Position numbers and translations under genes: made by a program. A stretch of DNA of 64,000 nucleotides from a bacterium (GTDB lineage: Bacteria > Patescibacteriota > Minisyncoccia > Minisyncoccales > JAGGXC01), in the NCBI GenBank assembly GCA_021157625.1, contig JAGGWD010000015.1, positions 13,800 through 77,799 of the forward strand, written 5' to 3'. Under the pieces are notes generated by a model. The model worked only from the letters and a program-made list of their open reading frames with translations. It was not told where the DNA came from and searched no databases. Positions 13,845-40,384 of the stretch are shown piece after piece. Position 1 is the stretch's first letter; each line of letters starts with the position of its first letter.

Positions 13845-13916
13845 GCCCTCGTAGTTGAATGGATACAACGACGGTCTTCGGAACCGTAGGTCCCCGTTCG
13901 AGTCGGGGCGAGGGCA
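13845..13916 (+). tRNA. tRNA-Arg (anticodon UCG)
   Basis: Acceptor gccctcg/cgagggc-a, anticodon stem acggt/accgt, loop ctTCGga, T-arm ccccg-ttcgagt-cgggg. Confidence 0.8.
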
Positions 13917-13927
13917 TTATATCAATT

Positions 13928-14458
13928 ATGAAAAAAATATTTCTTATATTCTTTATAATCTTCTTACTTTCTCCTTTGTTTGCCCTGGCAGAAGCGAAAA
14001 CTTATTCTATAACAGTAAAGCCGGCCGGAACTAGTCATACAGTAACCTATGAGGGTTTTGTTCCTTGCGGAAGATGTCTTGTTACCACTCCTCCTATATT
14101 GGGATTAAGCCCATGCGAAGGGACAGCAAATCAATATTTTATTCCTTGCCAGCCCTGTCACATTTTTATCATGATTGACTCGATAATTGATTTTATTCTC
14201 TTGACAATTGTCCCTCCTATTGCCACAATCATCTTTATAGCAGGTGGAGTTTCCTTCTATTTAGCAGGAGCAAATCCTGGACAGTTCCAGAAAGCAAAAT
14301 CTGTTTTGACAGCAGCAATTATTGGAGTTGTTATTATTTATACTTCGTGGATTATAGTAAACACCACACTCACTGCAGTAGGGGTGGCAGATTGGGTCGG
14401 TTTCGGTAAAGGATGGTTTGAGATAAAATGTCCTGTAGTATTAGAAGTATCCCCATGA
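13928..14458 (+). CDS. Secreted Cys-rich protein with a C-terminal pilin-like hydrophobic hairpin (VirB2/TrbC-like topology); paralog of the hairpin modules at 27.7-28.1 kb and 28.9-29.2 kb
   Basis: Start moved to the Met after tRNA-Arg. Signal peptide MKKIFLIFFIIFLLSPLFALA, then a VPCGRC...CQPCH motif. Two TM helices are separated by the charged loop GANPGQFQKAKS; this aligns residue-by-residue with the C-terminus of the 836-aa protein. Confidence 0.5.
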   Translation: MKKIFLIFFIIFLLSPLFALAEAKTYSITVKPAGTSHTVTYEGFVPCGRCLVTTPPILGLSPCEGTANQYFIPCQPCHIFIMIDSIIDFILLTIVPPIATIIFIAGGVSFYLAGANPGQFQKAKSVLTAAIIGVVIIYTSWIIVNTTLTAVGVADWVGFGKGWFEIKCPVVLEVSP

Positions 14459-15387: not shown

Positions 15388-17508
15388 ATGGAGACAAAAG
15401 AATTTAGGCTAAAGGTAGGAAATAAAGATCTAATAGTAGAAGTTAAAAACTTAGCTGAAAGAGCAAATGGAGAAATTCTGGTTCGTTACGGAGACACTCT
15501 TGTCTTAGCTACCTGTGTAATGAGCCAGGAAGAATCAAAAGAAACTGGCTTTTTTCCTCTAAGCGTGAATTACGAAGAGAGATATTATGCTGCTGGAAAA
15601 ATCAGAGGACCAAAATATATCAAACGCGAAGGAAAACCATCTGATGAAGCAGTTATAAACTCAAGATTAATCGACAGAGCCATTCGGCCTCAATTCCCTA
15701 AAGATCTTCACAGAGAAGTACAAGTAATTGTTACATGTCTTTCTTGGGATAGCGAAAACGATGCAGATGTCTTAGGAGTTAATGCAGCATCAATTGCTCT
15801 TTCTCTATCAGATATTCCTTGGAAAGGACCAGTAGCAAGCGTCAGAATAGGTAGAGTAAATGGAAATTTTGTAGTAAATCCTACCTATAGTCAAAGAGAC
15901 GAATCAGATCTGGATCTTGTATGCTCAGGGATAGAAGAAAACGGTGAAATTCTAATAAACATGATCGAATGTGGGGCTGAAGAGGTTGAAGAAGAAACAA
16001 TTCTCGAAGCTTTTTCATTTAGTAAGAAATATCTAAAGGAAATAATTGATTTTCAAAAAAGAATAAAAAACCTTTTAGGAAAAGAGAAAGTCGTAATTGA
16101 GCCCTTCAAGGATACAGGAATAGAAAAAGAAGTAAGAAAATGGCTACAGGATAAATTAGAAAAGGCTATTTTTTCAGAAGAGAGTAATCATCCAAAAACC
16201 TTGGATGATCTTAGAAGAGATTTCTTACATTTCTTTGAGACAAAATATACCGACATTCAAGAACTCAGATTTGTCTTAGAGAGCTTTGAAAAGGAAATAA
16301 GAAACTTAGTCCACAGAAAGATTATCGAAGAAGAAAAAAGACCAGATGGAAGAAAGCTAGACCAAATAAGACCCATGGAAGCAGCGGTAGCGCTTGTTCC
16401 TCGAAGCCACGGCTCTGGATTTTTCTCTCGTGGGAAAACAAAGGCTCTCTCAATTCTGACCCTAGGAGCACCAGGTGATCAACAGATTATAGAAGGAATG
16501 GAAATTGTAGGAAAGAAAAGATTTATGCATCATTATAATTTTCCTCCTTATTGTGCAGGCGAGATAAAACCATTAAGAGGACCAGGGAGAAGAGAAATAG
16601 GACACGGAATGCTTGTAGAAAAAGCTCTCTCACCCCTAATCCCTTCCTCTGAGGAGTTTCCTTATACCATAAGAATAGTCTCAGAAATACTTTCCTCAAA
16701 TGGATCAACATCTATGGCCTCGGTTTGCTCATCCTCTCTAGCTTTAATGGATGGCGGAGTGCCTATTTCAAGACCTGCTGCAGGAATTGCTATAGGATTG
16801 ATGATGGAAAATCAACAAAAATATAAAATTCTCACAGATATCCAAGGCGTAGAAGATCATCATGGAGACATGGATTTTAAAGTAGCAGGTACAGAAAAAG
16901 GAATAACTGCAATACAGATGGATGTAAAAATTCCAGGAATCGGGGACCAAATTTTAAGAGAATCATTGATGAGAGCAAAGAAAGCAAGATTAGAAATTCT
17001 AGAGAAAATGAAACAGGTTCTTTCTTGTCCTCGACTCCATCTCTCTCCCTGGGCGCCGCGGATTTACACTCTTAAGATTAACCCAGAAAAAATTGGAGAA
17101 CTTATCGGCACAGGCGGAAAGACTATTAGAAAAATAACTGAAGATTTTGAAGTAGTAATTGATATTGAAGAAGACGGAAAAATATTTGTCACTGCACAAA
17201 AAGAAGAAAACGCCAAGAAAGCTATTGCATTAATAAAGAATATTACCCGAGAGGTAAAAGTGGGAGAAATATTTCAAGGCAAAGTCACAAAAATCTTTGA
17301 CTTCGGTACTATGGTTGAATTTCTGCCAGGCAGAGAAGGGCTCATACATTCTTCTCGTTTAAGAAGAAGATTAAAACCTGGCGAAACAGTTATGGTAAGG
17401 GTAGCTGAAATAGATCCTCAAGGAAGAATTAATCTTTCTCTCTTCAGACAAAAAAAGATAACCCCAACAAGAAGTAAATATGGCCCAAAAAGAAGACAAA
17501 GGAGATAG
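15388..17508 (+). CDS. pnp: Polyribonucleotide nucleotidyltransferase (PNPase)
   Basis: 706 aa with two RNase PH domains, KH (GxxG) and a C-terminal S1 domain. Confidence 0.9.
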   Translation: METKEFRLKVGNKDLIVEVKNLAERANGEILVRYGDTLVLATCVMSQEESKETGFFPLSVNYEERYYAAGKIRGPKYIKREGKPSDEAVINSRLIDRAIRPQFPKDLHREVQVIVTCLSWDSENDADVLGVNAASIALSLSDIPWKGPVASVRIGRVNGNFVVNPTYSQRDESDLDLVCSGIEENGEILINMIECGAEEVEEETILEAFSFSKKYLKEIIDFQKRIKNLLGKEKVVIEPFKDTGIEKEVRKWLQDKLEKAIFSEESNHPKTLDDLRRDFLHFFETKYTDIQELRFVLESFEKEIRNLVHRKIIEEEKRPDGRKLDQIRPMEAAVALVPRSHGSGFFSRGKTKALSILTLGAPGDQQIIEGMEIVGKKRFMHHYNFPPYCAGEIKPLRGPGRREIGHGMLVEKALSPLIPSSEEFPYTIRIVSEILSSNGSTSMASVCSSSLALMDGGVPISRPAAGIAIGLMMENQQKYKILTDIQGVEDHHGDMDFKVAGTEKGITAIQMDVKIPGIGDQILRESLMRAKKARLEILEKMKQVLSCPRLHLSPWAPRIYTLKINPEKIGELIGTGGKTIRKITEDFEVVIDIEEDGKIFVTAQKEENAKKAIALIKNITREVKVGEIFQGKVTKIFDFGTMVEFLPGREGLIHSSRLRRRLKPGETVMVRVAEIDPQGRINLSLFRQKKITPTRSKYGPKRRQRR

Positions 17509-19927
17509 AAAATTTCTAAGCAGAGAAAAGATAATGACGATGAAGAAGGACATCGAGATGGCTAAATTGGGCAAATTTCCTGAAAGAGAGAAAGAGAAAT
17601 TGGTAGCCCAAAAGAAAAAGGAAGAAGAACAAAGAAAGATAGAAGAAGAAAGAAAAAGGATGGAAGAGATAAGAAAAAGGAAGGAAGAGCAAAGAAGAAA
17701 AATGGAGGAAGAGCAAAGAAGAAAAATGGAGGAAGAGCAAAGAAGAAAAATGGAGGAGGAATGGATAAGAAAAGAAATGGAAAGAAAGAAAAGAGAAGAA
17801 GAAGAAAGAAAAAGAAGAGAAGAAGAGAGAAAAAAGAGAATTGAGGAAGAAATGAGAAGAATAGAAGAAGAAAGGAAGAAGAGAGAAGAAGAAAGAAGAA
17901 AAAGAGAAGAAGAACGAAAGAAAGAAGAGATGGAAAGAATGAAAGCCTTAGCCCAAAAACCTTTGAAAGAAAGAATAAAAGAAGAAAAGGAAGAGATAGA
18001 GAAAGAGTTATCTCTCATTCAGGCTAAAAAACAACCTCTCCAAGAAAAGAAAAGGGAAATTTTAGAGCGAAAGAATAAAGTAAAAGAGGATCTCAACATT
18101 GCTTTAGAAAACGAGAAAAGGATTGAAGAAGAAGTCTTCAGGCTCCAAAAATTGGAGGAATCCGCTTCCTTTGACGAAAAAGAAAAGATAGAGGCTCAAA
18201 GATGGGAAATGGAAAGAAAAAGAAGAGAAGCAGAAGAAAAAAGATGGGCCATAGAGGATATACTTTATCAAATAGCAGAAGAAGAAGAGAAAATAGAAGA
18301 AGAATGGCAAGAAATTTCTAGTCAGGAAGAAAGATTGAATAAAAAACTAGAACAAATCTCAGCTCAGGAAGAATTGATAAAACTCCAAGAAAAGAAAAAG
18401 AAATTAGAAAATCGCCTTAGAGAACTTTTAGAACAAAGAGAGCCATTAGAGAACAAATTATCTAAAATCTCTGAGAGAAAATCCGAAACAGAAAAGCTTC
18501 TTAATGAAATTCTTGTTAGAGAAAATGAAATAGAGAAAGCAATAGCAGCGCTTGAAGAAAAAGAAAAGAGTACCCCTCTTTCTCCAGAAAAAAGAAGAAT
18601 AGAACAAAAAAGATGGGAAACTGAAAAAGAAAGAGAAAGAATAGAACAAAAAAGATGGCAAATAAATAATGAAATAAAAGCAATAGAAAAGGAAGAGAAA
18701 GAACTAAAGACAAGTTATGAAGACCTCTCAAGAAAGATTGAGATTGTGAAAAAGAGAATTGAAGAGATAGATCTTCTCATAGAAGAAAAGAGAAAGATTA
18801 TTACATCTACAGAAGAATTTGTATCACCAGCCCAAAAGAAAAAGGAAGAAGAACAAAGAAAGATAGAAGAAGAAAGAAAAAGGATGGAAGAGATAAGAAA
18901 AAGGGAGGAAGAGCAAAGAAGAAAAATGGAGGAGGAATGGATAAGAAAAGAAATGGAAAGAAAGAAAAGAGAAGAAGAAGAAAGAAAAAGAAGAGAAGAA
19001 GAGAGAAAAAAGAGAATTGAAGAAGAACTTAGACTTCTAAGAGAGAGAGCTCAAAAAGAAAGAGAAAGGATTATTGTCGAAGAAATCAGAAGAAAAGCAA
19101 AGGAAAGAGCAGAGAAAGAAAAAATGGAAGAGGAAAGGATTCTTAAACCAGAGCAACTACCCCAAAAAAGAGAACTTCCCAAGAAACCTTCCTTGCTCCA
19201 GAAAATAATCATAAGAATATTTGTTCTCCTTTTAATTCTTATTATTGCAGCAACAGCCTTATTCTTCTGGTGGTATTTTAGAGAAAAAGCAAAACCTCCT
19301 CTTCCTCCTCAACAACCGACTCAACCACAAGAAACCATACCCCTCCCTCCTTCTCCTCCTCTCTTTGTAATCACCCAAGCCAGTACAACTATAGAAGCCT
19401 CGAGCTCTCAGGAAATTCCTTCTGCATTAGAAGACTTTCTGAGAAAGCAAGAAATTAAAGAAGGGGATTTCCTTCAATTGCAGGTAAAGAATCTGGAAGC
19501 CAACAAAGAGATTAAGCTTGACGAATTTCTGACAGCTCTTGAAATGAACTCTCTCAAGGATCTTTCTTTATGCTTTGAAGAAAAATTTTCCCTTTTTGTC
19601 TATTCTCAGCCAACAGGAAAAAGATTAGGCTTTGCTATTACTCTCAAAAACAAAGAAGAAATAGAAGAATTAATGAAATCTTGGGAAGACAATGCCCAGC
19701 AAGACTTTCAGAAATTCTTTCTCTTAATGGAACATAAAGGTTCAGCCATGAATCCTGTGTTTAGAGATGCTGTTTACAAAACAAAACATTTTCGTTATCT
19801 TACATATTCAAGAAAAGATTTAGGAATCTGTTATCTGATATCAGAAGATTTCCTCATCTTTACCAGTTCTTATGAAAGCATGAAGAAAATAATTGAATAT
19901 TTAAATGAACAACAAATAAATGAATAA
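17480..19927 (+). CDS. ER/K-rich coiled-coil / single-alpha-helix-like bitopic membrane protein (815 aa)
   Basis: ~530 aa of E/R/K repeats (EEERKRREEERKK...), one TM helix (IIIRIFVLLLILIIAATALFFWWYF), a Pro-rich linker, and a ~190-aa C-terminal globular domain. The start overlaps the pnp 3' end (alternative Met at 17534). Confidence 0.6.
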   Translation: MAQKEDKGDRKFLSREKIMTMKKDIEMAKLGKFPEREKEKLVAQKKKEEEQRKIEEERKRMEEIRKRKEEQRRKMEEEQRRKMEEEQRRKMEEEWIRKEMERKKREEEERKRREEERKKRIEEEMRRIEEERKKREEERRKREEERKKEEMERMKALAQKPLKERIKEEKEEIEKELSLIQAKKQPLQEKKREILERKNKVKEDLNIALENEKRIEEEVFRLQKLEESASFDEKEKIEAQRWEMERKRREAEEKRWAIEDILYQIAEEEEKIEEEWQEISSQEERLNKKLEQISAQEELIKLQEKKKKLENRLRELLEQREPLENKLSKISERKSETEKLLNEILVRENEIEKAIAALEEKEKSTPLSPEKRRIEQKRWETEKERERIEQKRWQINNEIKAIEKEEKELKTSYEDLSRKIEIVKKRIEEIDLLIEEKRKIITSTEEFVSPAQKKKEEEQRKIEEERKRMEEIRKREEEQRRKMEEEWIRKEMERKKREEEERKRREEERKKRIEEELRLLRERAQKERERIIVEEIRRKAKERAEKEKMEEERILKPEQLPQKRELPKKPSLLQKIIIRIFVLLLILIIAATALFFWWYFREKAKPPLPPQQPTQPQETIPLPPSPPLFVITQASTTIEASSSQEIPSALEDFLRKQEIKEGDFLQLQVKNLEANKEIKLDEFLTALEMNSLKDLSLCFEEKFSLFVYSQPTGKRLGFAITLKNKEEIEELMKSWEDNAQQDFQKFFLLMEHKGSAMNPVFRDAVYKTKHFRYLTYSRKDLGICYLISEDFLIFTSSYESMKKIIEYLNEQQINE
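17606..17860. repeat. Intragenic direct repeat copy 1 (~200 bp shared with copy 2; includes a 24-bp x3 tandem at 17684-17755)
   Basis: gcccaaaagaaaaaggaagaagaacaaagaaagatagaag... is nearly nucleotide-identical to 18830-19030. Copy 1 carries two extra 24-bp units (gaagagcaaagaagaaaaatggag), giving EEQRRKME x3. Confidence 0.8.
18830..19030. repeat. Intragenic direct repeat copy 2
   Basis: Near-identical to 17606-17860 minus the two extra 24-bp units. Confidence 0.8.
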
Positions 19928-20285
19928 AAAAATTCTTAAACAATTAGAAAAACAATTAAAAGAAGAAAAAGAAGCTATAGAAGCTGAACTCAAGAAGTTT
20001 GCCAAGAAAGATAAAAAATTAGAAGGAGATTGGGATACACGTTTTCCTCACTTTGATGGAGAAACAGGTGGAGCTATTCTTGAAAAAGCTGCTGATGAAG
20101 TAGAGGAATACGAAGCTCTTTTGCCTGTTGAATTTAGCCTAGAGAAAAAGCTCCAAGATATTAATTTAGCTCTTGAGAAAATAAAAAAAGGGAAATACGG
20201 AATATGCGAGAAATGCAAAAAACCTATTTCTCTGGAGCGTCTGAAAGCGTTCCCTGCAGCAAGAACTTGTAAGAAATGTAAATAA
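19920..20285 (+). CDS. DksA/TraR-family C4-type zinc-finger protein
   Basis: 121 aa with an N-terminal coiled coil and C-terminal CEKCKKPI...ARTCKKCK (CxxC-x17-CxxC). Confidence 0.6.
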   Translation: MNKKILKQLEKQLKEEKEAIEAELKKFAKKDKKLEGDWDTRFPHFDGETGGAILEKAADEVEEYEALLPVEFSLEKKLQDINLALEKIKKGKYGICEKCKKPISLERLKAFPAARTCKKCK

Positions 20286-20334
20286 TTTTATTTTGAAATA
20301 AAAAAGAGGCCGCGGACAAAGAGCCGGGCCATAT

Positions 20335-21261
20335 TCATTTTAAGAGAGTAGGTAGTCTTATTCTGGGAATCTTGGCAGGTCTCCAGTCAATATTGATCCA
20401 TGGGTATTCTGTATTACCGTGCTCTACAGTTCCCCAAATTATCTTAACTATATGAGGCACTCCCCAGTAATTTCCTCTCCATTGCGCTCTCAAGCAATTA
20501 TGAAAAGTTGCTGATTTTACCCCTAATCCTAGAAATCCAAGAAGAACATCTGGCTCAAGAAAATTATTGTTTACTATCTGGCAGTAACTCTCTGTAGGAT
20601 AATCGAAGTTAATCGAAATTCCTGTCTGGTATCCGGCAAATGTATTACCGGATATCTCAAGACTGAACGCTCTCGAAGTATAAATACATTCTCTATCTCC
20701 CCAGAAATCGTTATTCTCTACAGTATTAAAAGAGTTATATATCTGAACACCCACAGTGTTTAATCCGATAGAGTTACTAGAAATTACATTTCCAGAACCC
20801 CAGATAACAATTCCTGCGTAACTGTTCAGTATTGTGTTTTCTTTTATGATGTTGTTGCTGCCTTTGACATAAATTGCTGTCCGTGCTTTATCTCCCATAA
20901 CTTTGAATCCTTGAACAACACAAGAATCAGCGGAGATCGAAATAATAGGACTACTCGCACCAGTGGAGCCTATTACTGGAATAGCCGGACCATTAGGATC
21001 CTTCTCTCCCTTGAGGATAATAGATGATTTATAGATATTAATACTTTCGTAGTAGACTCCTCCTCTTACTATAATTGTATCTCCGGATTTCGCAGCTACT
21101 ATTCCTTGCCGAATCTTAGTGTAATCACCGTCTCCGTCATCATCAACTATAATTGTCTTGCTAGTATCCTGCGCCAGAGCATTTCCTAAATTCGTACCAG
21201 CTAAACCACACACAGAGAGAATCGCTAGCGCCAAAAATATCCTCCTCAAAACTTTTTCCAT
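20335..21261 (-). CDS. Secreted right-handed parallel beta-helix repeat protein (pectin-lyase/NosD-like fold)
   Basis: Signal peptide, then repeated G-rich/N-rich beta-helix coil motifs (GIVIWGSGN, NSIGLNTVGVQIYNS, NNDFWGD). Confidence 0.5.
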   Translation of the reverse strand: MEKVLRRIFLALAILSVCGLAGTNLGNALAQDTSKTIIVDDDGDGDYTKIRQGIVAAKSGDTIIVRGGVYYESINIYKSSIILKGEKDPNGPAIPVIGSTGASSPIISISADSCVVQGFKVMGDKARTAIYVKGSNNIIKENTILNSYAGIVIWGSGNVISSNSIGLNTVGVQIYNSFNTVENNDFWGDRECIYTSRAFSLEISGNTFAGYQTGISINFDYPTESYCQIVNNNFLEPDVLLGFLGLGVKSATFHNCLRAQWRGNYWGVPHIVKIIWGTVEHGNTEYPWINIDWRPAKIPRIRLPTLLK

Positions 21262-21450
21262 TCATCTCACCTCCATATTCATTTTTCAAACTTCCAAGAT
21301 TACTTGGAAGGCAAGAGAAACAATTTCTGTTTCTCTTGCGCTTATATTATACCATATTTTTGGAATACTTGTCAAGTATGCTTGGATATCATTCCGAAAT
21401 ATGGTAATTTAAAAAAGTACTGAAACCCATTTTTTTGTTGATTTTCGAAT

Positions 21451-22890
21451 ATGCAAAAACAAAGCATTTTTTATAGATATCCCCTACTTTATCAACAAAG
21501 CTTAAAGTTAATTCATAGAAAGAATCTAAAGAAAAGATATCAATTGATTGCCTCTTTTATAAAGGAAGGAGAGAAAGTCCTCGAACCTGGCTGTGGAACA
21601 GGATTTTTGAAAAATTTTTTACCTTCAGGGTCTTTTTATTTTGGATTTGATCTTAACAAAAATTTCATTAACTGGGCTCAGAAAAAATATAAAGATTCGG
21701 TTTTTTACCTGGGAGATGTGCTTGATTCCAAAAGCTATTTCTCTGTAGATGTGGTTGTTATATGTGATGTCTTACATCATATAGAGACTTCAAAACAGAA
21801 AATGTTCTTGAGCAACTGCTGGAGATCAGCCAAAAAGAAATTAATTCTCTGTGAACCGAAAGGGAAAAATACTCTTTTATTAGGAAAGAAATTCTTTAGA
21901 TATTTCGAGCAAGACGGAATCAACCAACCAGATGCAGAAACTCTCTGGACAGAACAAGAGTTAAAAAAAATGATAAAAGAAGGATTTGGAGTTATTCCAT
22001 CAGAAATCCCGCGCCATATAGAAGAGATTGGGAAAGATATTCTCTGTGTTTTCTACAAAGAAAAAAAGTCTCTTGAAAAAAACACAAAGAAAGTATCAGC
22101 GGTTATTCCTGTGTTTAATGAAGAAAAAACAGTTGGGAAAATAGTGGAAACTTTTCTGAAGTCAGATTTAATAGATGAAGTAATCTGTGTAAATGATGGC
22201 TCCACTGACAGAAGTTTAGAAATTCTCGAAAGTTTTGGAGATAAAATAAAACTCATTAATCTCAAAGAAAACAAAGGTAAAGGATATGCTCTTGCAAAAG
22301 GCACAGAAATAGCAAAAGGAGAAATCATTGTCTTCTGGGACGCGGATTTTCCAAACCTTTCTCTCGAGCATATAGAAATTTTGGTTAAACCTGCCCTAAA
22401 AAGAAACTTTAAGGCAATTCTAGGAGTCCCAGTAAAAAACAGGTTTCAGTTCTCTCTTCCTACCCGTATCTATCTAACTGGCGAGAGAGTATATCCCAAA
22501 GACCTTCTACTTCCTCACCTTCAAGAAATGAAGAAGACAAGATTTGGAGTAGAGATTTTCCTAAATCGTCTGGTAGAGAAAAAACATACTCAGATTATTC
22601 CCCTAAAAGGCCTCATTTTCCCTTACAAATATGAAAAAAGATCTCTAGCCCAGGCCTCAAAAGAATATCTTTTGGAAGCAGTAGAATTAGCAAAAGAGTT
22701 TAGTAGGACCAGATCTCTCTTGCCTGAAGATCTGCGGATTATTGAGGGTTTAAAAGAAATTAATACCTTAACAGAGCTCAAAATACAGATCAAGAAAATT
22801 AAAGACGAAAAACTAAAAAAATTGTTAAAAGATTACATTTTAAAATACATAGATCGAGTAAGAAGAAATATAAAAAGGATTTCAATTTAA
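21451..22890 (+). CDS. Bifunctional class I SAM-dependent methyltransferase / family 2 glycosyltransferase fusion
   Basis: N-terminal MTase motif I (VLEPGCGTGF); C-terminal GT2 signature (VSAVIPVFNEE...NDGSTD...DAD). Confidence 0.65.
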   Translation: MQKQSIFYRYPLLYQQSLKLIHRKNLKKRYQLIASFIKEGEKVLEPGCGTGFLKNFLPSGSFYFGFDLNKNFINWAQKKYKDSVFYLGDVLDSKSYFSVDVVVICDVLHHIETSKQKMFLSNCWRSAKKKLILCEPKGKNTLLLGKKFFRYFEQDGINQPDAETLWTEQELKKMIKEGFGVIPSEIPRHIEEIGKDILCVFYKEKKSLEKNTKKVSAVIPVFNEEKTVGKIVETFLKSDLIDEVICVNDGSTDRSLEILESFGDKIKLINLKENKGKGYALAKGTEIAKGEIIVFWDADFPNLSLEHIEILVKPALKRNFKAILGVPVKNRFQFSLPTRIYLTGERVYPKDLLLPHLQEMKKTRFGVEIFLNRLVEKKHTQIIPLKGLIFPYKYEKRSLAQASKEYLLEAVELAKEFSRTRSLLPEDLRIIEGLKEINTLTELKIQIKKIKDEKLKKLLKDYILKYIDRVRRNIKRISI

Positions 22891-22894
22891 AAAT

Positions 22895-24430
22895 ATGTCT
22901 TCTAAGGTTTTCTCAGCTGCTTTAGTAGGATTAGATGCTCAGATAATTGAAGTAGAAACAGATATCTCTTATGGATTAAGACGATTGGAGATAGTAGGTC
23001 TTGGCGATAAAGCGATTCAAGAATCAAAAGAAAGGGTAAGCGCAGCTATAAAAAGTTCTTATTTAAAACCTCCCTATCATTTTCCCCAAAGAGTTCTTAT
23101 TAATCTCGCCCCTGCTGATTTGAAAAAAGAAGGAGCTTGTTATGATCTTCCTATCGCTCTTTGTTATTTGCTTGCTTCAAAACAAGTGAATTTCTCTCCT
23201 CATGGCAAGCTCATAGTTGGGGAACTAGCATTGGATGGGAAATTAAGAAAAATAAAAGGAGTGCTTGCTCTAGCACTGCTTGCCCAAAAAAAGAATTTTA
23301 AAGAAATTATCCTTCCCAAAGCAAATGCTCCTGAAGCTGCTCTCATAAAGGGATTGAGGGTAATTGGAGTAGAAACATTAAAAGAAGCTATAGAATATCT
23401 TGAAGGGAGAAAAGAAATTCTCCCTTTTTTGGTAGATATCGATTCTATTAAATCAGAGAATGAATATTCCATCGATTTAGGACTTATCAAAGGGCAAGAA
23501 TATGCAAAAAGAGGATTAGAAATTGCTGCTGCTGGAGGACATAATCTTTTAATGATAGGACCGCCAGGCACCGGCAAAACTCTTCTGGCAAAAGCTATTA
23601 CTGGCATCTTGCCTTCTCTCTCTTTTGAAGAATCGCTTGAGGTGACAAAGATCTACAGCATTGCAGGACTTCTTTCTCAAGAAAAACCTTTAATCAAAAT
23701 ACGACCATTTCGTTCACCTCATCATAGCTGCTCTGAAGTAGCACTGATCGGTGGAGGTAACCCTCCTCGACCTGGAGAGATCACCCTTGCCCACAGGGGA
23801 GTACTTTTTTTGGATGAATTTCCTGAATTTCACCGAGATGTCTTGGAATCTCTCCGCCAGCCGATGGAAAATGGCTACATTATTATTGCAAGAGCCCGGA
23901 CCAGAGTAAAATTTCCAGCAAATTTCACATTGGTAGCTGCTTCCAATCCTTGTCCTTGTGGCTACTTAAACGATCCAACAAGAGAATGCAAATGTAGTAG
24001 CGCTCAGATCCAAAAATATCAAAGAAAACTCTCCGGTCCTATTATAGATAGAATAGATGTCTTTGTAGAAGTTCCTCCTGTAAAATATGAGAGATTAACA
24101 GAAGAGTATATAAAAAATTCAAGCGAGCACATAAGAAAAAGGGTAGAAAAAGCTCGCCAGATTCAAAGAGAAAGATTTAAAAAAGAAAAATCTCTCACTC
24201 AGACCACCAATAGTGAACTTACAATTGATCAAATTAAAAAATATTGCCAACTTGATTCAAAATCTCGCGCTCTGTTAAGAAAATTTGTAAATTCAGGAAA
24301 ACTTTCTGTTCGTGGTTATCATAGAGTTCTTAAAATGGCTCGCACTATTGCTGATCTTGAAGGAAAGCTTTCTATTTCTTTTTCTCATCTAAGTGAGGCT
24401 TTAATGTATAGGATAAGAGAAGAAAAATAA
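22895..24430 (+). CDS. comM: YifB/ComM family Mg-chelatase-like AAA+ ATPase
   Basis: 511 aa with an N-terminal Lon-protease-like domain and an AAA core (GPPGTGKT, VLFLDEFPEF). Confidence 0.85.
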   Translation: MSSKVFSAALVGLDAQIIEVETDISYGLRRLEIVGLGDKAIQESKERVSAAIKSSYLKPPYHFPQRVLINLAPADLKKEGACYDLPIALCYLLASKQVNFSPHGKLIVGELALDGKLRKIKGVLALALLAQKKNFKEIILPKANAPEAALIKGLRVIGVETLKEAIEYLEGRKEILPFLVDIDSIKSENEYSIDLGLIKGQEYAKRGLEIAAAGGHNLLMIGPPGTGKTLLAKAITGILPSLSFEESLEVTKIYSIAGLLSQEKPLIKIRPFRSPHHSCSEVALIGGGNPPRPGEITLAHRGVLFLDEFPEFHRDVLESLRQPMENGYIIIARARTRVKFPANFTLVAASNPCPCGYLNDPTRECKCSSAQIQKYQRKLSGPIIDRIDVFVEVPPVKYERLTEEYIKNSSEHIRKRVEKARQIQRERFKKEKSLTQTTNSELTIDQIKKYCQLDSKSRALLRKFVNSGKLSVRGYHRVLKMARTIADLEGKLSISFSHLSEALMYRIREEK

Positions 24431-24433
24431 AAC

Positions 24434-24461
24434 AAAAAACTCTCGATTCGAGAGATTTTTG
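24434..24461. terminator. Bidirectional intrinsic terminator
   Basis: aaaaaa-ctctcg-att-cgagag-atttttg between convergent genes. Confidence 0.45.
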
Positions 24462-24476
24462 TTTCTTGCTAAATTC

Positions 24477-25556
24477 TTATCGGGCAAATGGATTTCGAGG
24501 AGGAGAACCTTGAGAACTATAAAGTCCAAAGTGAAGATGGCAACCAGCAGATCCAGCAGGAATAGTTTTTCCAGAATGTCCTATCAATCCAATAAGCTCT
24601 CCTTGCGAAACCTCCTGGCCGACTACTACCAGAATTTTTTGAAGATGTCCATAATGTGTTATCAGCCCATTTGGATGAAGGATTCTAATATAATTTCCTG
24701 CTCCACGATTATAACCATATTTTACCTTCAGCACCTTTCCTCCGGCAGCAGCAAAAACAGGTTTTCCGCAACTATTACCTACATTAGCAAAATCAACAGC
24801 ATTATACCAATGAAGACCTTGAGTAACTCGATAAGGAGAGGAAACTGGGACGATAAAATAACTCGAAGCAACTGGAATTTGACTAAAGGAATAGCTGTAA
24901 CTCCTTACTTGAACAGGCTTAACTCCGCCGGGAATAACCAGAATATCTCCTACATAAATATCTCCCTCTTCTGAAAGATCATTAAAAGCAATAATATCCT
25001 CAATTTTTGCTTTATAAGTACGAGCAATCTCGCTTAAAGTATCACCTTTCTTTACATGGTGAATTACCCCTGAGACCGGAAGGATAATTAATTTCTGACC
25101 AGGACGAATAATAGAGTTTCTTCCTAAATCATTTGCCCATAAAATGGTATTTAAAGAAATACCAAAATCAGCAGCAATAGAACCAAGAGTATCGCCCGGT
25201 TGAACCACATATTCTGTAATTTCCTTTTTCTGAATTTCCTCTCCCGACAATGCAGCTAAGGTCTTGGAAGAAAAAATCTGGAGACAGGAAACTCCAGCTA
25301 AGCTGTTATTCTGGATAAAAGTAAGTTCAGGCGATTCGATATAAGATCTATCTTGAGAATTAATAAATAACTTCTGCTGCTTGAGAGAAACTGCCTGAAT
25401 TCTTTGATCTCCAAAAGAAAAACTCAACCAAAAACCTACAGAAATAACTAAAACCCCTATTAAAAAAACTAAAAATTTGCTCCACAAAGATTTTAACATC
25501 TTGTCTTCTAAATTAGTAAATCTATTCTGAAAGTCAAGTAATTTCTCCACAGCCAT
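24477..25556 (-). CDS. LysM (x2) + M23 family metallopeptidase (cell-wall hydrolase)
   Basis: Two LysM motifs (GDTLGSIAADFGISLNTILWAN; GDTLSEIARTYKAKIEDIIAFN) and an M23 catalytic region (HxxxD...HLHF). Confidence 0.8.
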   Translation of the reverse strand: MAVEKLLDFQNRFTNLEDKMLKSLWSKFLVFLIGVLVISVGFWLSFSFGDQRIQAVSLKQQKLFINSQDRSYIESPELTFIQNNSLAGVSCLQIFSSKTLAALSGEEIQKKEITEYVVQPGDTLGSIAADFGISLNTILWANDLGRNSIIRPGQKLIILPVSGVIHHVKKGDTLSEIARTYKAKIEDIIAFNDLSEEGDIYVGDILVIPGGVKPVQVRSYSYSFSQIPVASSYFIVPVSSPYRVTQGLHWYNAVDFANVGNSCGKPVFAAAGGKVLKVKYGYNRGAGNYIRILHPNGLITHYGHLQKILVVVGQEVSQGELIGLIGHSGKTIPAGSAGCHLHFGLYSSQGSPPRNPFAR

Positions 25557-25575: not shown

Positions 25576-28086
25576 ATGAAATTTATTATAAAATTAAAAA
25601 AAATAAGTATAACACCCATGAAAAAACAAAAAATTTATCTATCCCTTCTTGCGATAATAATATTGATCTCTCTTTTTATTATATTTTTAGCGACAACAAA
25701 AAATCAGCAAGTAGTAAAAGCATCCCCAGGGATATACCTAGAATTCAGATGCGACGAAAACAATAACAAGTGTGGCGACAGAATTCTGGTGAGAGCATGT
25801 GTTGGAACAGGAGGTGAAAAAGTATGTACTCCAGGTTTTGACAAAATAGACGATCTTATCCAGGCAATAAAGGAAAAATGGGGATGGGAAGAACCTGAAA
25901 ATTGGAGCGATCTCCCAAGTCTTTTGAAGTGTAAAGACTATCAAATTTGTACTAGATTAGCCCCTCCTCCTACTGAATGGAGTAAAATACCTGCTTATTG
26001 CAAATGTAAAGGAAAATGTATAGAAAAGCCTAAAAGAGCAGGAACCGAAGAATGCCCCGAATGTGGAATTAGAGACGGAATTGATTTTGTGAATCCTGAA
26101 AGCGGCCCCATCTTCTTACCTGCCCATTTTGATTGGGAAAAGGTAGAGGGAGCAAAATCATATCGATGGAAAGCTGTCCCTGTTGCAATCCCAGGTGTTA
26201 CATATGTACCAAGTACTAACACAAAAACCATAGTCTCTGATGTTATAAGAGATATCTCACACCCTCGCAATCCTCCTACCGAATATACACCACCCTCTTG
26301 TTCTCTTCAATCAGGAAACGCATATTATTGGAAAGTTCAGCCATGTTGTGATCTTGCTGGACTCAATTGTAAACCATGGGCAGAGCTTGATGCCTGGCCT
26401 TTTACTACAAGTCTAGCCCCTGAACCAGCTACTCCTTCTGATCCTGACTGGAATAACACTACCAGTGAAGCAGAAACGCAAGACATTCCTGTAATTCTGG
26501 ACTGGTGTGACCCTCCCGATAACACAGTTATGTTGGGCGAAGGCAGAAAAGGAGAATATTATTATGACCAAGGACGAGGAAAGAATATAACCAGTTATAA
26601 ATTAAAACTTTACCACATAAACAGTGAAAATCAGGAAGAGTGTCATCCTTTATTAGTTAAAGATGGAAAATGTATACCAAAAGAAATAATCCCTGGTTCT
26701 AATTGGCCATGGGATAAACTCTACTCTCTTTGGGAAGACTTCACAGGAACATATTTAATTGAGAACCAACGATATAGATGGCAAGTGGCTACTTGCTATT
26801 TATCGGAAGGAAAGGAATACTGTAGTGACTATAGCCAGAAATGGGGCTTTTCTGTAGGAACAAATATTAGAGAAACAGAATTGATAGCTCCTCCAAATAA
26901 TATCAATGATGCTATAGGTCTTCCTGTGACTTTTAAATGGAACAGAGCAATTGGAATCAATTCTTATAATTACAATATTGGAGGCCATACTGGTACTACC
27001 TCAGCAAACATCATAACTTTTGATTGGCCTGATTTTGAGCTCGATACAGTCTATAATTGGACAATCCAACCCTGTACTGACTATGCAGCTCAAAATTGCA
27101 AAGATTGGCTTGATCCTTGGCAATTCAAAATCACTGGTGCTCCTCCTGTTTTGCTTGCTCCTACAGGAACAGAAGCGCTTTCAGCAGTAATTCCTGTAAA
27201 ACTTGATTGGAAAGATGTCTCAGGAGCAGGCTCCTATGAGTATAGAATATTAGGAGGAATAAGCCCAGTAAAAGGAGTGGTGAATGTATCGGAAGTTGTA
27301 GTAGATTATCCTGATCTGAAACTAAACCATGTCTATACTTGGCAGGTTAGAACATGCGCCCATAAAGATGGAAGCGTATGCGGAAAGTGGAGCAATCTTG
27401 GCGCTTTCACTACTTTCTCAATGGGATTTCCTGTTCTCATAAAACCTTCTCTTAATGCAAAAATTGAAGAACCGGAAATACGGTTCTCTTGGAAACCGTT
27501 GAAAGGTGCTAAGTATTACGAATACGTTATAAAGAACAAGAACACAGGAGAGGAAATCTTTCATAAGATTATAAATTCAGATTCCATCACACACTATTCC
27601 TACGAGTTTCCTGAAGTAGGAGAGTATGAATGGAGAGTAAGAGGATGTCTTGATTCAAGCTGCGGAACGGGAGGTGCAGGACCATGGAGTAATTGGCGAA
27701 CTTTCAACTTAGCACTTACAGCGCCTCCACAAAGACAAGGAGGATTAGTTCCCTGTGGCCGTCTCTATGATGATCCCAACACACCATGGGATGAGAGAGA
27801 ACAATGCCAGATTAAACATCTCTTCTTGCTTATTAGAAATATCTTGGATTTTCTTCTCTGGAAGTTAGCAACCATTCTCTTAATACTCGCATTGGTAGCA
27901 GTTGGGGTTATGCTCTACATCTCTAAAGGAGAAACAACTATTATCTTGCAAGTAAAATCTGCTCTCAAATGGATAATCATAGGATATGGTCTAATACTTC
28001 TCGCTTGGTCTATTGTCAACTTCCTCTTAGCCCTTGCTGGATTTCGGTTTCAAATCTTTGGACATTGGTGGGAACTACCTTTCTAA
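25576..28086 (+). CDS. Large (836 aa) secreted Cys/Trp-rich FN3-like repeat protein ending in a pilin-like hydrophobic hairpin
   Basis: N-terminal signal/anchor; at least 6 repeated ~95-aa modules with FxWxxVxGAxxYxY and Y.W.V..C motifs (FN3-like with paired Cys). The C-terminus (VPCGR...CQIKH then 2 TM separated by KGETTIILQVKS) is homologous to 13928..14458. Confidence 0.6.
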   Translation: MKFIIKLKKISITPMKKQKIYLSLLAIIILISLFIIFLATTKNQQVVKASPGIYLEFRCDENNNKCGDRILVRACVGTGGEKVCTPGFDKIDDLIQAIKEKWGWEEPENWSDLPSLLKCKDYQICTRLAPPPTEWSKIPAYCKCKGKCIEKPKRAGTEECPECGIRDGIDFVNPESGPIFLPAHFDWEKVEGAKSYRWKAVPVAIPGVTYVPSTNTKTIVSDVIRDISHPRNPPTEYTPPSCSLQSGNAYYWKVQPCCDLAGLNCKPWAELDAWPFTTSLAPEPATPSDPDWNNTTSEAETQDIPVILDWCDPPDNTVMLGEGRKGEYYYDQGRGKNITSYKLKLYHINSENQEECHPLLVKDGKCIPKEIIPGSNWPWDKLYSLWEDFTGTYLIENQRYRWQVATCYLSEGKEYCSDYSQKWGFSVGTNIRETELIAPPNNINDAIGLPVTFKWNRAIGINSYNYNIGGHTGTTSANIITFDWPDFELDTVYNWTIQPCTDYAAQNCKDWLDPWQFKITGAPPVLLAPTGTEALSAVIPVKLDWKDVSGAGSYEYRILGGISPVKGVVNVSEVVVDYPDLKLNHVYTWQVRTCAHKDGSVCGKWSNLGAFTTFSMGFPVLIKPSLNAKIEEPEIRFSWKPLKGAKYYEYVIKNKNTGEEIFHKIINSDSITHYSYEFPEVGEYEWRVRGCLDSSCGTGGAGPWSNWRTFNLALTAPPQRQGGLVPCGRLYDDPNTPWDEREQCQIKHLFLLIRNILDFLLWKLATILLILALVAVGVMLYISKGETTIILQVKSALKWIIIGYGLILLAWSIVNFLLALAGFRFQIFGHWWELPF

Positions 28087-28101
28087 GAATGAAAGAATAC
28101 G

Positions 28102-29905: not shown

Positions 29906-29921
29906 AGAAGATTTTAAATCA

Positions 29922-40219: not shown

Positions 40220-40384
40220 ATATGGGATAAAGTAAAACAAACCAAATAATCCCCAATCAAACCCCATTCCCTTAAACAATTTCTTTTATCCTCACAAGCC
40301 TATAAACACAACAAGAAACCCAAAAAATATTAAAAACAAAAAAATTCTACAATTATTAAGATTAAATAATTTAGAATAAAAAAT
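40220..40384. other. Candidate oriC / DnaA-box region (dnaA-dnaN intergenic)
   Basis: Degenerate DnaA boxes (ttatcctca at ~40297, tgggataaa at ~40224) plus a strongly AT-rich stretch (aaaaaatattaaaaacaaaaaaattctacaattattaag). A second candidate is the rpmH-dnaA spacer at 38699-38863. Confidence 0.35.

What the first reader, a model, noticed from the sequence alone, without database searches (positions are those of the whole stretch)
17480..19927. 815-aa ER/K-rich probable single-alpha-helix membrane protein with nucleotide-identical internal repeats
About 530 residues are almost pure E/R/K (EEERKRREEERKKRIEEE...), the composition of stable single alpha helices (SAH/ER-K motif) used as molecular spacers. 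A single TM helix, a Pro-rich linker and a C-terminal globular domain follow. The charged segment contains a ~200-bp direct repeat (17606-17860 vs 18830-19030) and a 24-bp x3 tandem (17684-17755, EEQRRKME x3) that are near-identical at the DNA level. The rod length is therefore likely to vary by recombination or slippage. The gene overlaps the pnp stop and is followed by a DksA/TraR-type zinc finger gene. A cytoplasmic ruler tethered to the membrane is an odd architecture for a small genome.
Basis: seen in the sequence. Interest (0 to 1): 0.6.

Follow-up and report, generated by a model that had tools for sequence, protein, structure and literature searches.

The report
Envelope-spanning rod protein of Patescibacteria
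This gene encodes a membrane protein, from a large and so far undescribed family of ultrasmall (Patescibacteria/CPR) bacteria, that probably links the cell wall outside to an unknown partner inside the cell; in this strain a stiff, highly charged helical spacer has recently been duplicated and is still changing length.

Summary
The 815-aa ORF, single TM helix, Pro-rich linker, C-terminal domain and near-identical DNA repeats are real. Copy A (17605-17852) and copy B (18829-19028) match at 211/215 positions apart from a 48-bp indel, and the longest exact repeat is 117 nt against at most 26 in shuffles. "530 residues of pure E/R/K" is overstated. Only aa 39-161 and 449-527 look like single alpha helices. 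Between them lies a conserved fixed-length module of two 137-aa units, predicted as a ~20 nm three-helix rod (pLDDT 95).

The protein belongs to a Patescibacteria family (1,294 cluster representatives) with no Pfam or NCBIfam model. The family plan is an invariant N-terminal peptide (..RTMxKD..), a cytoplasmic spacer of 42-853 aa, a PKKPS box plus TM helix, and a novel extracellular domain often fused to peptidoglycan-binding or GH3 domains. The gene sits between pnp and a dksA-like gene in every full-length locus examined. Other lineages split it into two genes, and one paralogue is fused to PilM in a pilus operon.

A 97%-identical strain has one repeat unit fewer, so spacer length does vary. 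Most likely it is a trans-envelope tether. It is not EzrA or DivIVA, and not PilN by sequence. The cytoplasmic partner is unknown.

The parts
17480..19927 (+). Whole gene: 815-aa bitopic membrane protein (N-terminus in the cytoplasm, C-terminus outside). It starts 29 nt inside the end of pnp and ends 8 nt inside the start of the dksA-like gene.
17510..17572 (+). Conserved N-terminal peptide (aa 11-31, KFLSREKIMTMKKDIEMAKLG). The family consensus is ..EFLKREEIRTMxKDIARLRE... It is presumed to be a docking helix.
   Evidence: In 106 aligned relatives T is 100%, M 99%, K 94% and D 99% conserved. The peptide sits at the C-terminus in P0190 and P0192. In each locus it occurs only in this gene.
17594..17962 (+). 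ER/K segment 1 (aa 39-161), SAH-like, about 18 nm if fully helical.
   Evidence: E/R/K 0.7-0.9, high i/i+4 opposite-charge score, hydrophobic fraction at a/d positions 0.25-0.38
17605..17852 (+). DNA direct repeat, copy A (aa 42-125).
17671..17757 (+). 24-bp tandem array (EEQRRKME units, 3.6 copies). It accounts for the 48-bp difference between copies A and B and is 27 nt shorter in a sister strain.
17957..18775 (+). Conserved fixed-length helical module (aa 160-432) made of two tandem 137-aa units. It is predicted as three helices of 68, 134 and 63 residues, giving a rod of about 20 nm.
   Evidence: Essentially gapless alignment of 23 relatives. Motif spacing is exactly 137 aa in 23 of 24 two-copy sequences. 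AF2 pLDDT 95.1.
18197..18247 (+). First 'ERW' motif (QRWEMERKRREAEEKRW, aa 240-256), immediately after the first helix turn.
18608..18658 (+). Second 'ERW' motif (KRWETEKERERIEQKRW, aa 377-393), immediately after the second helix turn.
18824..19060 (+). ER/K segment 2 (aa 449-527), SAH-like, about 12 nm. It was created by the duplication.
18829..19028 (+). DNA direct repeat, copy B (aa 450-517). The offsets to copy A are 1224 and 1176 bp, both multiples of 3.
19175..19192 (+). Juxtamembrane box LPKKPS (the family consensus is I-R-P-L-P-K-K-P-S).
19205..19279 (+). Single transmembrane helix (aa 576-600).
19280..19360 (+). Pro/Gln-rich extracytoplasmic linker (aa 601-627).
   Evidence: low pLDDT
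19361..19924 (+). Conserved extracytoplasmic alpha/beta domain (aa 628-815), which defines the family. It has no curated model and no significant structural match.
19920..20285 (+). Overlapping (probably translationally coupled) downstream gene: a 121-aa DksA/TraR-type C4 zinc-finger protein, found after this family in all nine loci examined between pnp and the dksA-like gene.
   Evidence: PF01258 E=7.7e-10; below the NCBIfam DksA cut-offs; synteny
15388..17508 (+). Upstream gene pnp (polynucleotide phosphorylase), whose end overlaps the start of this gene. It belongs to the conserved rpsO-NYN-pnp-X-dksA-like string.

Best explanation
The gene encodes a trans-envelope tether or scaffold specific to Patescibacteria.

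Shown:
- It is a bitopic protein. Its C-terminal alpha/beta domain is extracytoplasmic and functionally tied to peptidoglycan.
- The cytoplasmic part has four elements in order: an almost invariant N-terminal peptide, an ER/K helix, a conserved fixed-length two-unit helical rod, and a second ER/K helix.
- The second ER/K helix is a very recent in-frame duplicate of the first.
- The ER/K array changes length between strains.

Inferred:
- The ER/K helices act as stiff single-alpha-helix spacers, and the module as a rigid rod of about 20 nm.
- Together they hold the N-terminal docking peptide up to roughly 30-40 nm from the membrane, so that a cytoplasmic partner is coupled to a cell-wall-anchored domain.
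- This is the same logic as PilN/GspL, where a short cytoplasmic peptide docks the actin-like ATPase PilM. One paralogue of this family is literally fused to PilM and sits in the PilN position.
- Candidate partners are the co-translated DksA-like protein, PNPase or the NYN RNase from the same operon, or a PilM/FtsA-type ATPase.
- Slippage in the 24-bp array and recombination between copies A and B tune or remove the spacer. A x B recombination would give an in-frame product of 407 or 423 aa without the module, which has the short-form architecture of most family members.
For: Family:
- 1,294 cluster representatives at E<=1e-3 and 549 at E<=1e-10.
- Source names are only 'hypothetical protein', from Patescibacteria or Paceibacterota.

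Topology and cell-wall link:
- The shared domain carries C-terminal fusions to PG_binding_1 (one or two copies) or a GH3 NagZ-type glycosidase.
- Cys-rich extracellular linkers occur in L004 and P0072.
- A PilM domain is fused on the N-terminal side in P0059.
- A LysM-M23 or LysM-CHAP hydrolase gene is conserved next to the locus.

Conserved operon:
- The order cca | pilin-like, rpsO, NYN, pnp, X, dksA-like is seen in the window, L003, L004, L006-L009, L012 and L013, with abutting or overlapping reading frames.

Docking peptide:
- T, M, K and D are 94-100% conserved.
- The peptide is portable to the C-terminus and unique to this gene in each locus.

Module:
- Exact 137-aa spacing, an essentially gapless alignment, and three long helices at pLDDT 95.

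Split and fused forms:
- The module protein and the TM protein are adjacent separate genes in L004, L012 and L013.

PilN position:
- P0059 reads PilM_2 (3e-40), then INLIP, then PKQPTF, TM and C-domain. It sits inside a type IV pilus cluster.

SAH character:
-. The definition of SAH domains as charged, monomeric rigid connectors comes from PMC5812594 and PMC5347031.

Length variation:
-.
Against: - No partner has been identified and no experiment exists for any member.
- The window's own juxtamembrane box (RELPKKPS) matches the INLLP-type motif poorly.
- There is no sequence or profile similarity to PilN or PilO.
- Foldseek did not retrieve PilN, PilO or GspL folds among its 50 best-ranked matches.
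- The gene is not in a pilus operon, and no pilM gene was found among the 43 window ORFs of at least 180 aa, 37 of which were scanned against Pfam.
- Cytoplasmic spacer length varies 20-fold across the family, so a precise distance cannot be essential in general.
- SAH behaviour was judged with an ad hoc score of my own, not a published predictor or a measurement.
- The claim that both module termini meet at mid-rod is deduced from the helix lengths, not from inspected coordinates.
Confidence: 0.5

Rival explanations
1. Transmembrane signalling device of the anti-factor type. The extracellular domain senses the state of the cell wall or muropeptides. The cytoplasmic N-terminal peptide sequesters the co-translated DksA-like RNA-polymerase-binding protein at the membrane and releases it on a signal.
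For: - The dksA-like gene follows and usually overlaps this gene in nine of nine loci.
- The overall layout of cytoplasmic N-peptide, TM helix and extracellular sensor resembles anti-sigma factors (own knowledge).
- GH3/NagZ and PG-binding fusions fit cell-wall sensing.
Against: - There is no evidence of an interaction.
- A 30-40 nm rigid spacer is unnecessary for sequestration.
- The PilM-fused paralogue has no dksA neighbour.
- In L013 the 119-aa gene in the dksA position has no Pfam hit on record.
Confidence: 0.15
2. Membrane anchor for RNA-processing machinery. The protein tethers PNPase and/or the NYN-domain RNase, encoded just upstream in the same operon, to the membrane. This would be analogous to the membrane-anchored, coiled-coil-bearing RNase Y or the RNase E scaffold.
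For: - The gene start overlaps or abuts the pnp stop in all loci.
- The rpsO-NYN-pnp-X order is invariant.
- The RNase Y N-terminal region is also a charged helical segment next to a TM helix (own knowledge; the window's RNase Y was identified).
Against: - The extracellular domain, with its PG-binding and GH3 fusions, has no role in this model.
- The genome already encodes RNase Y.
- Operon membership alone is weak evidence.
Confidence: 0.1
3. Sub-membrane skeleton. The two-unit module polymerises or dimerises (tektin- or intermediate-filament-like) into a lattice under the membrane, pinned to the wall through the TM helix and C-domain. It would give shape or rigidity to ultrasmall cells.
For: - The three-helix topology (68/134/63 residues) implies half-length helices packing on one long helix.
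- The best structural analogues are tektins, at probability about 0.9 and TM 0.42-0.46.
- A weak profile hit to Tektin-3, E = 0.0098.
- The strictly fixed module length across divergent lineages fits a lattice element.
- Soluble stand-alone module proteins exist.
Against: - The Foldseek E-values (0.25 and above) are not significant, and long helices match each other trivially.
- Most family members lack the module (47 of 188 carry the motif).
- There is no evidence of polymerisation.
Confidence: 0.12
4. Assembly artefact or meaningless low-complexity expansion. The second ER/K copy and/or the tandem units are mis-assembled, and the charged stretches are non-functional filler.
For: - Contigs of other assemblies break at or next to the repeats. 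L010 ends at window 17861. One arm of L001 ends at 19081. P0002 and P0004 start in or just after the charged region.
- A 200-bp perfect repeat exceeds the length of short reads.
Against: - A second contig arm encodes the identical 815-aa protein.
- The sister strain keeps the reading frame despite a 27-nt difference.
- All indels and offsets are multiples of 3.
- ER/K segments at the same position are common in relatives.
- Contig breaks at the repeat borders are what a genuine repeat produces.
Confidence: 0.05
5. A conventional coiled-coil cell-division protein such as EzrA or DivIVA.
For: Long helical, charged cytoplasmic region next to a TM helix.
Against: - No Pfam or NCBIfam match at E<=1 for the whole protein or in 57 relatives.
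- The TM helix is at aa 576-600 rather than at the N-terminus as in EzrA, and DivIVA has no TM helix (own knowledge).
- The ER/K parts lack a heptad core.
Confidence: 0.03

Closest known systems
PilN / GspL (alignment-complex proteins of type IV pili and type II secretion)
   Same: Both are bitopic with the N-terminus inside. Both have a short conserved cytoplasmic peptide close to the TM helix and an extracytoplasmic alpha/beta domain. One family paralogue (P0059) is a PilM-INLIP-TM-C-domain fusion in a pilus operon, which is exactly the GspL-like arrangement.
   Different: There is no sequence or profile similarity to PilN or PilO and no PilN/PilO fold among the 50 best-ranked Foldseek matches. 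The extracellular domain is larger (~190 aa). There is a long N-terminal extension with its own docking peptide. The gene lies in the pnp-dksA operon, not a pilus operon.
ER/K single alpha helices (SAH domains) of myosin VI/X, caldesmon, CAF-1 KER and similar proteins
   Same: About 80-90% E/R/K, an i/i+4 opposite-charge pattern and no hydrophobic seam. Both act, or are presumed to act, as rigid connectors between functional parts (PMC5812594, PMC5347031, PMC10335832).
   Different: This one is bacterial and membrane-tethered. It is present twice through a nucleotide-identical duplication that flanks a folded rod. Helicity and monomeric state have not been measured.
Tektins (axonemal filament proteins)
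   Same: Both have two homologous halves and one long central helix with two half-length helices folding back on it. Tektins are the best Foldseek analogues, and there is a weak profile hit.
   Different: The scores are not significant and no Pfam Tektin hit was found. Tektins are eukaryotic ciliary proteins, so any likeness is probably convergent helical packing.
RodZ / FtsN / MapZ-type bitopic adaptors of the cell-wall machinery
   Same: A cytoplasmic N-terminal element that binds a cytoskeletal protein, a single TM helix, and an extracytoplasmic domain dealing with peptidoglycan (own knowledge). Here the peptidoglycan link comes from domain fusions and neighbouring genes.
   Different: No HTH, SPOR or other defining domain of those families was found. 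The partner is unknown.
TolA and the RNase Y N-terminal region
   Same: A membrane anchor followed by a long charged alpha-helical stretch used as a spacer (own knowledge).
   Different: In TolA the helix is periplasmic and the TM helix is N-terminal. RNase_Y_N (PF12072) matches the window's own RNase Y but not this protein.

Membership tests
Uncharacterised Patescibacteria family placed between pnp and the dksA-like gene (defined here) | Profile match to the PKKPS box, TM helix and ~190-aa C-terminal domain | tested here: met
   36-49% identity to P0002 and P0004. 1,294 relatives in the exhaustive profile search.
Uncharacterised Patescibacteria family placed between pnp and the dksA-like gene (defined here) | N-terminal ..RTMxKD.. 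peptide | tested here: met
   The window has KIMTMKKDI at aa 17-25. T, M, K and D are conserved in 94-100% of 106 relatives.
Uncharacterised Patescibacteria family placed between pnp and the dksA-like gene (defined here) | Position between pnp and a DksA/TraR-type zinc-finger gene | tested here: met
ER/K single alpha helix (SAH) | Very high E/R/K content with i to i+4 (and i+3) opposite-charge pairs over at least ~30 residues | tested here: met
   aa 39-161 and 449-527: E/R/K 0.7-0.9 and score 0.55-0.79, against 0.05-0.28 elsewhere. The score is my own.
ER/K single alpha helix (SAH) | No heptad hydrophobic core (this separates SAH from coiled coils) | tested here: met
   The best-register hydrophobic fraction at a/d positions is 0.25-0.38 in the ER/K segments, against up to 0.75-1.0 in parts of the module.
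ER/K single alpha helix (SAH) | Monomeric, stably helical in solution | not testable with these tools
   Needs CD, AUC or SAXS on aa 39-161.
PilN (PF05137) / PilO | Sequence or profile similarity | tested here: not met
   No Pfam hit in the window protein or in 57 relatives. hhalign against E. coli HofN and HofO gave probabilities of 1.2% and 0.1%.
PilN (PF05137) / PilO | INLLP-type PilM-binding peptide next to the TM helix | tested here: inconclusive
   P0059 has INLIP. The family consensus is I-R-P-L-P-K-K-P-S. The window has RELPKKPS. The PilN motif itself is recalled from memory.
PilN (PF05137) / PilO | Encoded in a pilM-pilN-pilO pilus cluster | tested here: not met
   The window gene lies in the rpsO-pnp-X-dksA operon. 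No pilM was found among the 37 Pfam-scanned window ORFs of at least 180 aa. Only the paralogue P0059 is in a pilus cluster.
EzrA / DivIVA | Profile match and family topology | tested here: not met
   No hit at E<=1. The TM helix is at aa 576-600, not at the N-terminus.
Tektin | Significant sequence or fold similarity | tested here: inconclusive
   Foldseek E=0.25-1, probability up to 0.94, TM 0.42-0.46. PDB profile hit E=0.0098. No Pfam hit.
DksA (the neighbouring gene, not the target) | C4 zinc finger of the DksA/TraR type, and an equivalog-level score | tested here: inconclusive
   PF01258 E=7.7e-10, above its cut-off. NCBIfam DksA and YteA models score 43-65 bits, below their cut-offs of 105-134. 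It is therefore DksA-like, not a demonstrated DksA.

The most novel reading that the evidence does not exclude
The gene, its split-gene equivalents and the coupled DksA-like protein form a previously undescribed, Patescibacteria-wide trans-envelope system. A wall-anchored extracellular domain is connected, through evolvable single-alpha-helix spacers and a fixed ~20 nm tektin-like rod that may oligomerise, to an invariant docking peptide. That peptide recruits a cytoplasmic machine (the RNA polymerase regulator, the RNA decay enzymes or an actin-like ATPase). This would amount to a new kind of bacterial membrane skeleton or signalling scaffold, built from three domain families that have no curated model.
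Probability: 0.25. Interest if true: 0.8.

Novelty: new variant of a known kind. Interest (0 to 1): 0.55.

Why it matters
Patescibacteria/CPR make up a large share of bacterial diversity. Their genomes are tiny, and many of their conserved genes have no known function.

This locus picks out one such family. It has more than a thousand 50%-identity clusters and sits at a fixed place in a core operon next to pnp and a DksA-like regulator. The analysis gives it a testable anatomy: three unmodelled sequence modules, a link to peptidoglycan, a PilM-fusion paralogue, and split and fused gene forms.

If the tether model holds, it would show how ultrasmall cells couple the wall to cytoplasmic machinery. 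It would also give a natural bacterial example of ER/K single-alpha-helix spacers whose length is tuned by slippage and recombination.

The narrower point is useful for annotators. The repeat is real and in frame, and it breaks short-read assemblies.

Tried and rejected
- Pfam, NCBIfam, PADLOC and PHROGs scans of the whole protein and of the C-terminal part found no family. A Pfam scan of 57 relatives gave only scattered TM-type noise.
- PDB sequence searches with the single sequence and with two profiles returned only chance or generic coiled-coil hits.
- Foldseek against the PDB gave nothing significant. For the C-domain the best matches were DcrB, TM1622, LpqN, TP0453 and PsbP-like partial matches at E >= 0.009. 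For the module the best were tektins at E >= 0.25.
- hhalign of the family profile against E. coli HofN and HofO found nothing, so PilN membership is rejected on sequence grounds.
- The JGI name 'flagellar biosynthesis GTPase FlhF' for P0153 and the DUF3671 hit for P0159 were treated as low-complexity artefacts.
- The antisense ORF 17371..18018 (215 aa, S/F/L-rich) is the mirror image of the purine-rich repeats, not a gene.
- Literature searches for the family, for CPR DksA and for CPR PilMN found nothing that describes it.
- The metagenome scan found no variant with the module deleted. It returned a single contig that ends inside the gene.
- Comparing copies A and B with the sister strain's copy A (2 against at least 4 differences) gave too few sites to separate gene conversion from a recent duplication.
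Full report

The ORF at 17480..19927 (+) is present and encodes 815 aa, with E 23%, K 15% and R 11%. A single hydrophobic segment (aa 576-600) is followed by a Pro/Gln-rich stretch and a 188-aa C-terminal region.

The DNA repeat is as described. Copy A (17605-17852) and copy B (18829-19028) are identical at 211 of 215 aligned positions. They differ only by one 48-bp gap, which equals two units of the 24-bp tandem array at 17671-17757. The longest exact repeat is 117 nt, against a mean of 16 and a maximum of 26 in 200 dinucleotide-preserving shuffles of the charged region. Chance and purine-rich composition therefore do not explain it.

The start of the gene overlaps the pnp stop by 29 nt, and its stop overlaps the start of a DksA/TraR-type zinc-finger gene by 8 nt.

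E/R/K exceeds 0.74 only in aa ~45-150 and ~451-525. The ~300 residues between them are about 50% E/R/K with about 30% hydrophobic residues.

**2. Could the repeats be an assembly artefact?**

Reads are not available, so this stays open in the strict sense. Several points argue for real repeats:

- The identical 815-aa product is encoded on JGI contig Ga0187538_156471, which is 99.96% identical to the window over 8.4 kb. That contig is a hairpin chimera, and its independence from the window's assembly is unknown.
- A contig from another sample (Ga0164318_10005434, 97% identical, so a sister strain) covers the 5' part of the gene and stops exactly at the end of copy A, at window 17861. A genuine repeat has this effect on a short-read assembly graph.
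- In that strain copy A is 27 nt (9 aa) shorter: EEQRRKR-EEERRKM instead of three EEQRRKM units. The reading frame is preserved.
- All length differences and both A-to-B offsets (1224 and 1176 bp) are multiples of three.

The exact unit number in this assembly remains unverified.

**3. What family is it?**

- A word-indexed search with the C-terminal 256 aa found only the identical fragment and one 36% relative.
- An exhaustive profile search found 1,294 cluster representatives at E<=1e-3 and 549 at E<=1e-10.
- Where sources give a name, it is 'hypothetical protein' from Patescibacteria or Paceibacterota.
- Neither the window protein nor 57 relatives match any Pfam-A family in the shared region. 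NCBIfam, PADLOC and PHROGs also give nothing.
- An AlphaFold2 model of aa 560-815 built on 57 sequences is confident (pLDDT 89.7). It shows the TM helix, a disordered linker and an alpha/beta domain with eight strands.
- Foldseek finds no significant solved relative. The best matches are partial ones to DcrB, TM1622, LpqN, TP0453 and PsbP-type sandwiches at E >= 0.009. Profile searches of PDB sequences find nothing.

**4. Family anatomy.**

Comparison of about 190 relatives gives the following common plan.

- *N-terminal peptide.* The consensus is ..EKLEFLKREEIRTMxKDIARLRE.EA.KERERI. T, M, K and D are 100, 99, 94 and 99% conserved. The window has KFLSREKIMTMKKDIEMAKLG.
- *Cytoplasmic region of very variable length.* It spans 42 to 853 aa in 82 motif-bearing proteins.
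- *Juxtamembrane box and TM helix.* The box has the consensus I-R-P-L-P-K-K-P-S.
- *Linker.* It is acidic or Pro-rich, and in some members Cys-rich.
- *C-terminal domain.* This is the conserved part that defines the family.
- *Optional C-terminal additions.* These are one or two PG_binding_1 domains, or a GH3 (NagZ-type) glycosidase domain.

These fusions, the Cys-rich linkers and a PilM domain fused on the N-terminal side of one member fix the topology as N-in/C-out. They also tie the conserved domain to peptidoglycan.

**5. The middle of the 'rod' is a folded module.**

A 17-residue motif, E-[KR]-R-W-x2-E-x-[KR]-R-x3-E-x2-[RK]-W, occurs twice in the window protein, at aa 240 and 377. In 23 of the 24 sequences that carry two copies, the spacing is exactly 137 residues.

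About 275 residues align essentially without gaps across 23 sequences that share only 25-38% identity. This is a conserved domain of two tandem 137-aa units, not low complexity.

AlphaFold2, using 23 sequences, predicts it at pLDDT 95.1 as three helices of 68, 134 and 63 residues. Tight turns sit just before each ERW motif. From the lengths I infer that the two shorter helices fold back on the two halves of the 134-residue helix. That would give a rod of about 20 nm with both chain ends near its middle. I could not inspect coordinates, so this is an inference.

The nearest structural analogues are tektins (probability up to 0.94, TM 0.42-0.46). The E-values of 0.25 and above are not significant. 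The profile hit to Tektin-3 (E = 0.0098) is weak. I treat this as a resemblance in helical packing only.

The motif occurs in 47 of 188 sequences, so the module is limited to the long forms.

**6. The ER/K segments.**

With a simple score for i/i+3 and i/i+4 opposite charges, aa 39-161 and 449-527 stand out at 0.55-0.79, against 0.05-0.28 elsewhere. They have almost no hydrophobic residues at any heptad register. This fits the published description of SAH domains as charged, monomeric rigid connectors (PMC5812594, PMC5347031, PMC5378345). The score is my own, and no biophysical data exist.

ER/K stretches just after the N-terminal peptide are common in the family: 30 of 193 sequences pass my strict threshold. 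The window protein has the most SAH-like sequence (202 aa) and is the only one with two long segments.

The second segment is therefore a lineage-specific duplicate of the first, inserted after the module. The two copies bracket the module precisely. Homologous recombination between them would remove 392 or 408 codons in frame. The product, of 423 or 407 aa, would have the short-form architecture typical of the family. No such variant was found.

**7. Genomic context.**

In the window and in L003, L004, L006-L009, L012 and L013 the order is cca (opposite strand), a T4SS-pilin-like gene, rpsO, a NYN-domain gene, pnp, this gene, and a DksA-like zinc-finger gene. In L013 the 119-aa gene in that last position has no Pfam hit on record. 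In most loci a LysM-M23 or LysM-CHAP hydrolase and ksgA come next. Reading frames abut or overlap. The short contig L002 also keeps the dksA-like gene downstream.

In the window, three genes sit between the dksA-like gene and the hydrolase: a NosD-like beta-helix gene, a methyltransferase-GT2 fusion and a ComM-like gene.

In L004, L012 and L013 the slot holds two genes. The first encodes a soluble protein carrying the docking peptide (at its N- or C-terminus) and the module. The second encodes a TM protein. That second protein is a clear family member in L004 (E = 1.5e-90), a weak one in L012, and only architecturally similar in L013. The window gene therefore corresponds to a fusion of two genes that work side by side elsewhere.

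**8. The PilM clue.**

P0059 matches the family profile at E = 5.8e-51. It consists of a complete PilM_2 domain (E = 3e-40), the sequence SGINLIPLGKRPKQPTF, a TM helix and the family C-domain. It is encoded in a type IV pilus cluster between PilC, adhesin-like genes and a pilin.

INLLP is, from my own knowledge, the PilM-binding motif of PilN. The arrangement therefore equals a PilM-PilN (GspL-like) fusion, with the family domain in the PilN position.

However, no sequence or profile similarity to PilN or PilO exists. The window's box (RELPKKPS) is a poor INLLP. The window gene is not in a pilus operon. No pilM gene was found among the window ORFs of at least 180 aa scanned against Pfam. The protein may work like PilN/GspL, but I do not file it as a member.

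**9. Most likely function.**

I commit, at confidence about 0.5, to a trans-envelope tether with these parts:

- a peptidoglycan-associated extracellular domain
- one TM helix
- a stiff cytoplasmic arm made of an SAH segment, a rod of about 20 nm and a second SAH segment
- an invariant docking helix at the tip of that arm

If fully extended, the arm would place the docking helix some 30-40 nm from the membrane (0.15 nm per residue; inference). The partner is unknown. Candidates are the co-translated DksA-like protein, PNPase or the NYN RNase of the same operon, or a PilM/FtsA-type ATPase.

The rivals are listed separately with their tests. They are an anti-factor-type signalling device for the DksA-like protein, a membrane anchor for RNA decay enzymes, a tektin-like sub-membrane skeleton, and an assembly artefact or filler. 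A conventional EzrA or DivIVA assignment is rejected.

**10. Novelty and score.**

The individual ingredients are known kinds: bitopic adaptors, ER/K helices and repeat-driven length variation. The family itself has no curated model, no solved relative and no paper that I could find. That applies to the ..RTMxKD.. peptide, the 2 x 137-aa module and the extracellular domain.

I rate it a new variant of a known kind, with interest 0.55. It is a solid lead into conserved Patescibacteria biology, with a clear anatomy but no demonstrated function.

Noticed in passing
L001 / L005 (JGI contig Ga0187538_156471, 20,482 bp): The public contig is a hairpin chimera. Window 19081-25265 runs forward and is then followed by the reverse complement of window 24820-20151 and beyond. 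A further 99-nt inverted piece sits at its start. Gene calls on it are duplicated in mirror order.
   Followed up: partly
window 13845-13916 and 13859-14458: A tRNA (Rfam, 65 bits) overlaps the first ~58 nt of the listed 199-aa T4SS-pilin-like ORF. The real start is probably the internal MKKIFLIFF... signal-peptide-like Met. The same pilin-like gene precedes rpsO in all related loci.
   Followed up: no
window 20335-24430: In most related loci the LysM-M23 hydrolase follows the dksA-like gene directly, or after a ComM-like gene. This genome has a NosD-like beta-helix gene (minus strand) and a methyltransferase-GT2 fusion gene inserted between them.
   Followed up: no
window 17371-18018 (minus strand): A 215-aa antisense ORF rich in S, F and L lies opposite the ER/K-coding repeats. 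It is a by-product of the purine-rich sense strand, not a gene.
   Followed up: yes
L004 7475-9271; also P0005, P0006, P0012 and others: In lineages where the gene is split, the TM protein begins with a different conserved N-terminus, MSIxESIKKARxRGxSDxEILQEIIKQNPEK, repeated twice in L004. This is a small helical domain of unknown role and could be the receptor for the soluble module protein.
   Followed up: no
L004 aa ~170-215 of the second ORF; P0072 aa 100-150: Cys-rich modules (CxxxxDCPxGxxC repeats, with a weak DUF7107 hit) are inserted between the TM helix and the conserved domain. This is consistent with an extracellular, disulfide-bonded linker.
   Followed up: no
window 25576-32162 and 35020-36846: A cluster of very large proteins carrying C-terminal T4SS_pilin domains (836 aa and 382 aa), together with a VirB4/TraC-like ATPase, suggests a CPR-type conjugation-like or T4SS apparatus. 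An SPFH/Band 7 gene lies at 32190-33281.
   Followed up: no
window 38864-41512; composition profile: dnaA-dnaN lie at 38.9-41.5 kb. The cumulative GC-skew minimum and the switch of gene orientation are at ~13.8 kb, between cca and the pilin-like-rpsO string, not at dnaA.
   Followed up: no
window 46247-47419 (minus strand): A 390-aa protein with two Lamin Tail Domains (PF00932, E=1e-34) lies next to a PilT-like ATPase at 47596-48891. A PilB-like ATPase is at 823-2568.
   Followed up: no
P0190, P0192 (L013 6001-7398): These soluble relatives have a single module unit, a long ER/K-type stretch, and the docking peptide (LRTLKGDL or IRTFKSDM) near the C-terminus followed by KKIFPW. The peptide is therefore functional at either end of the chain.
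   Followed up: partly
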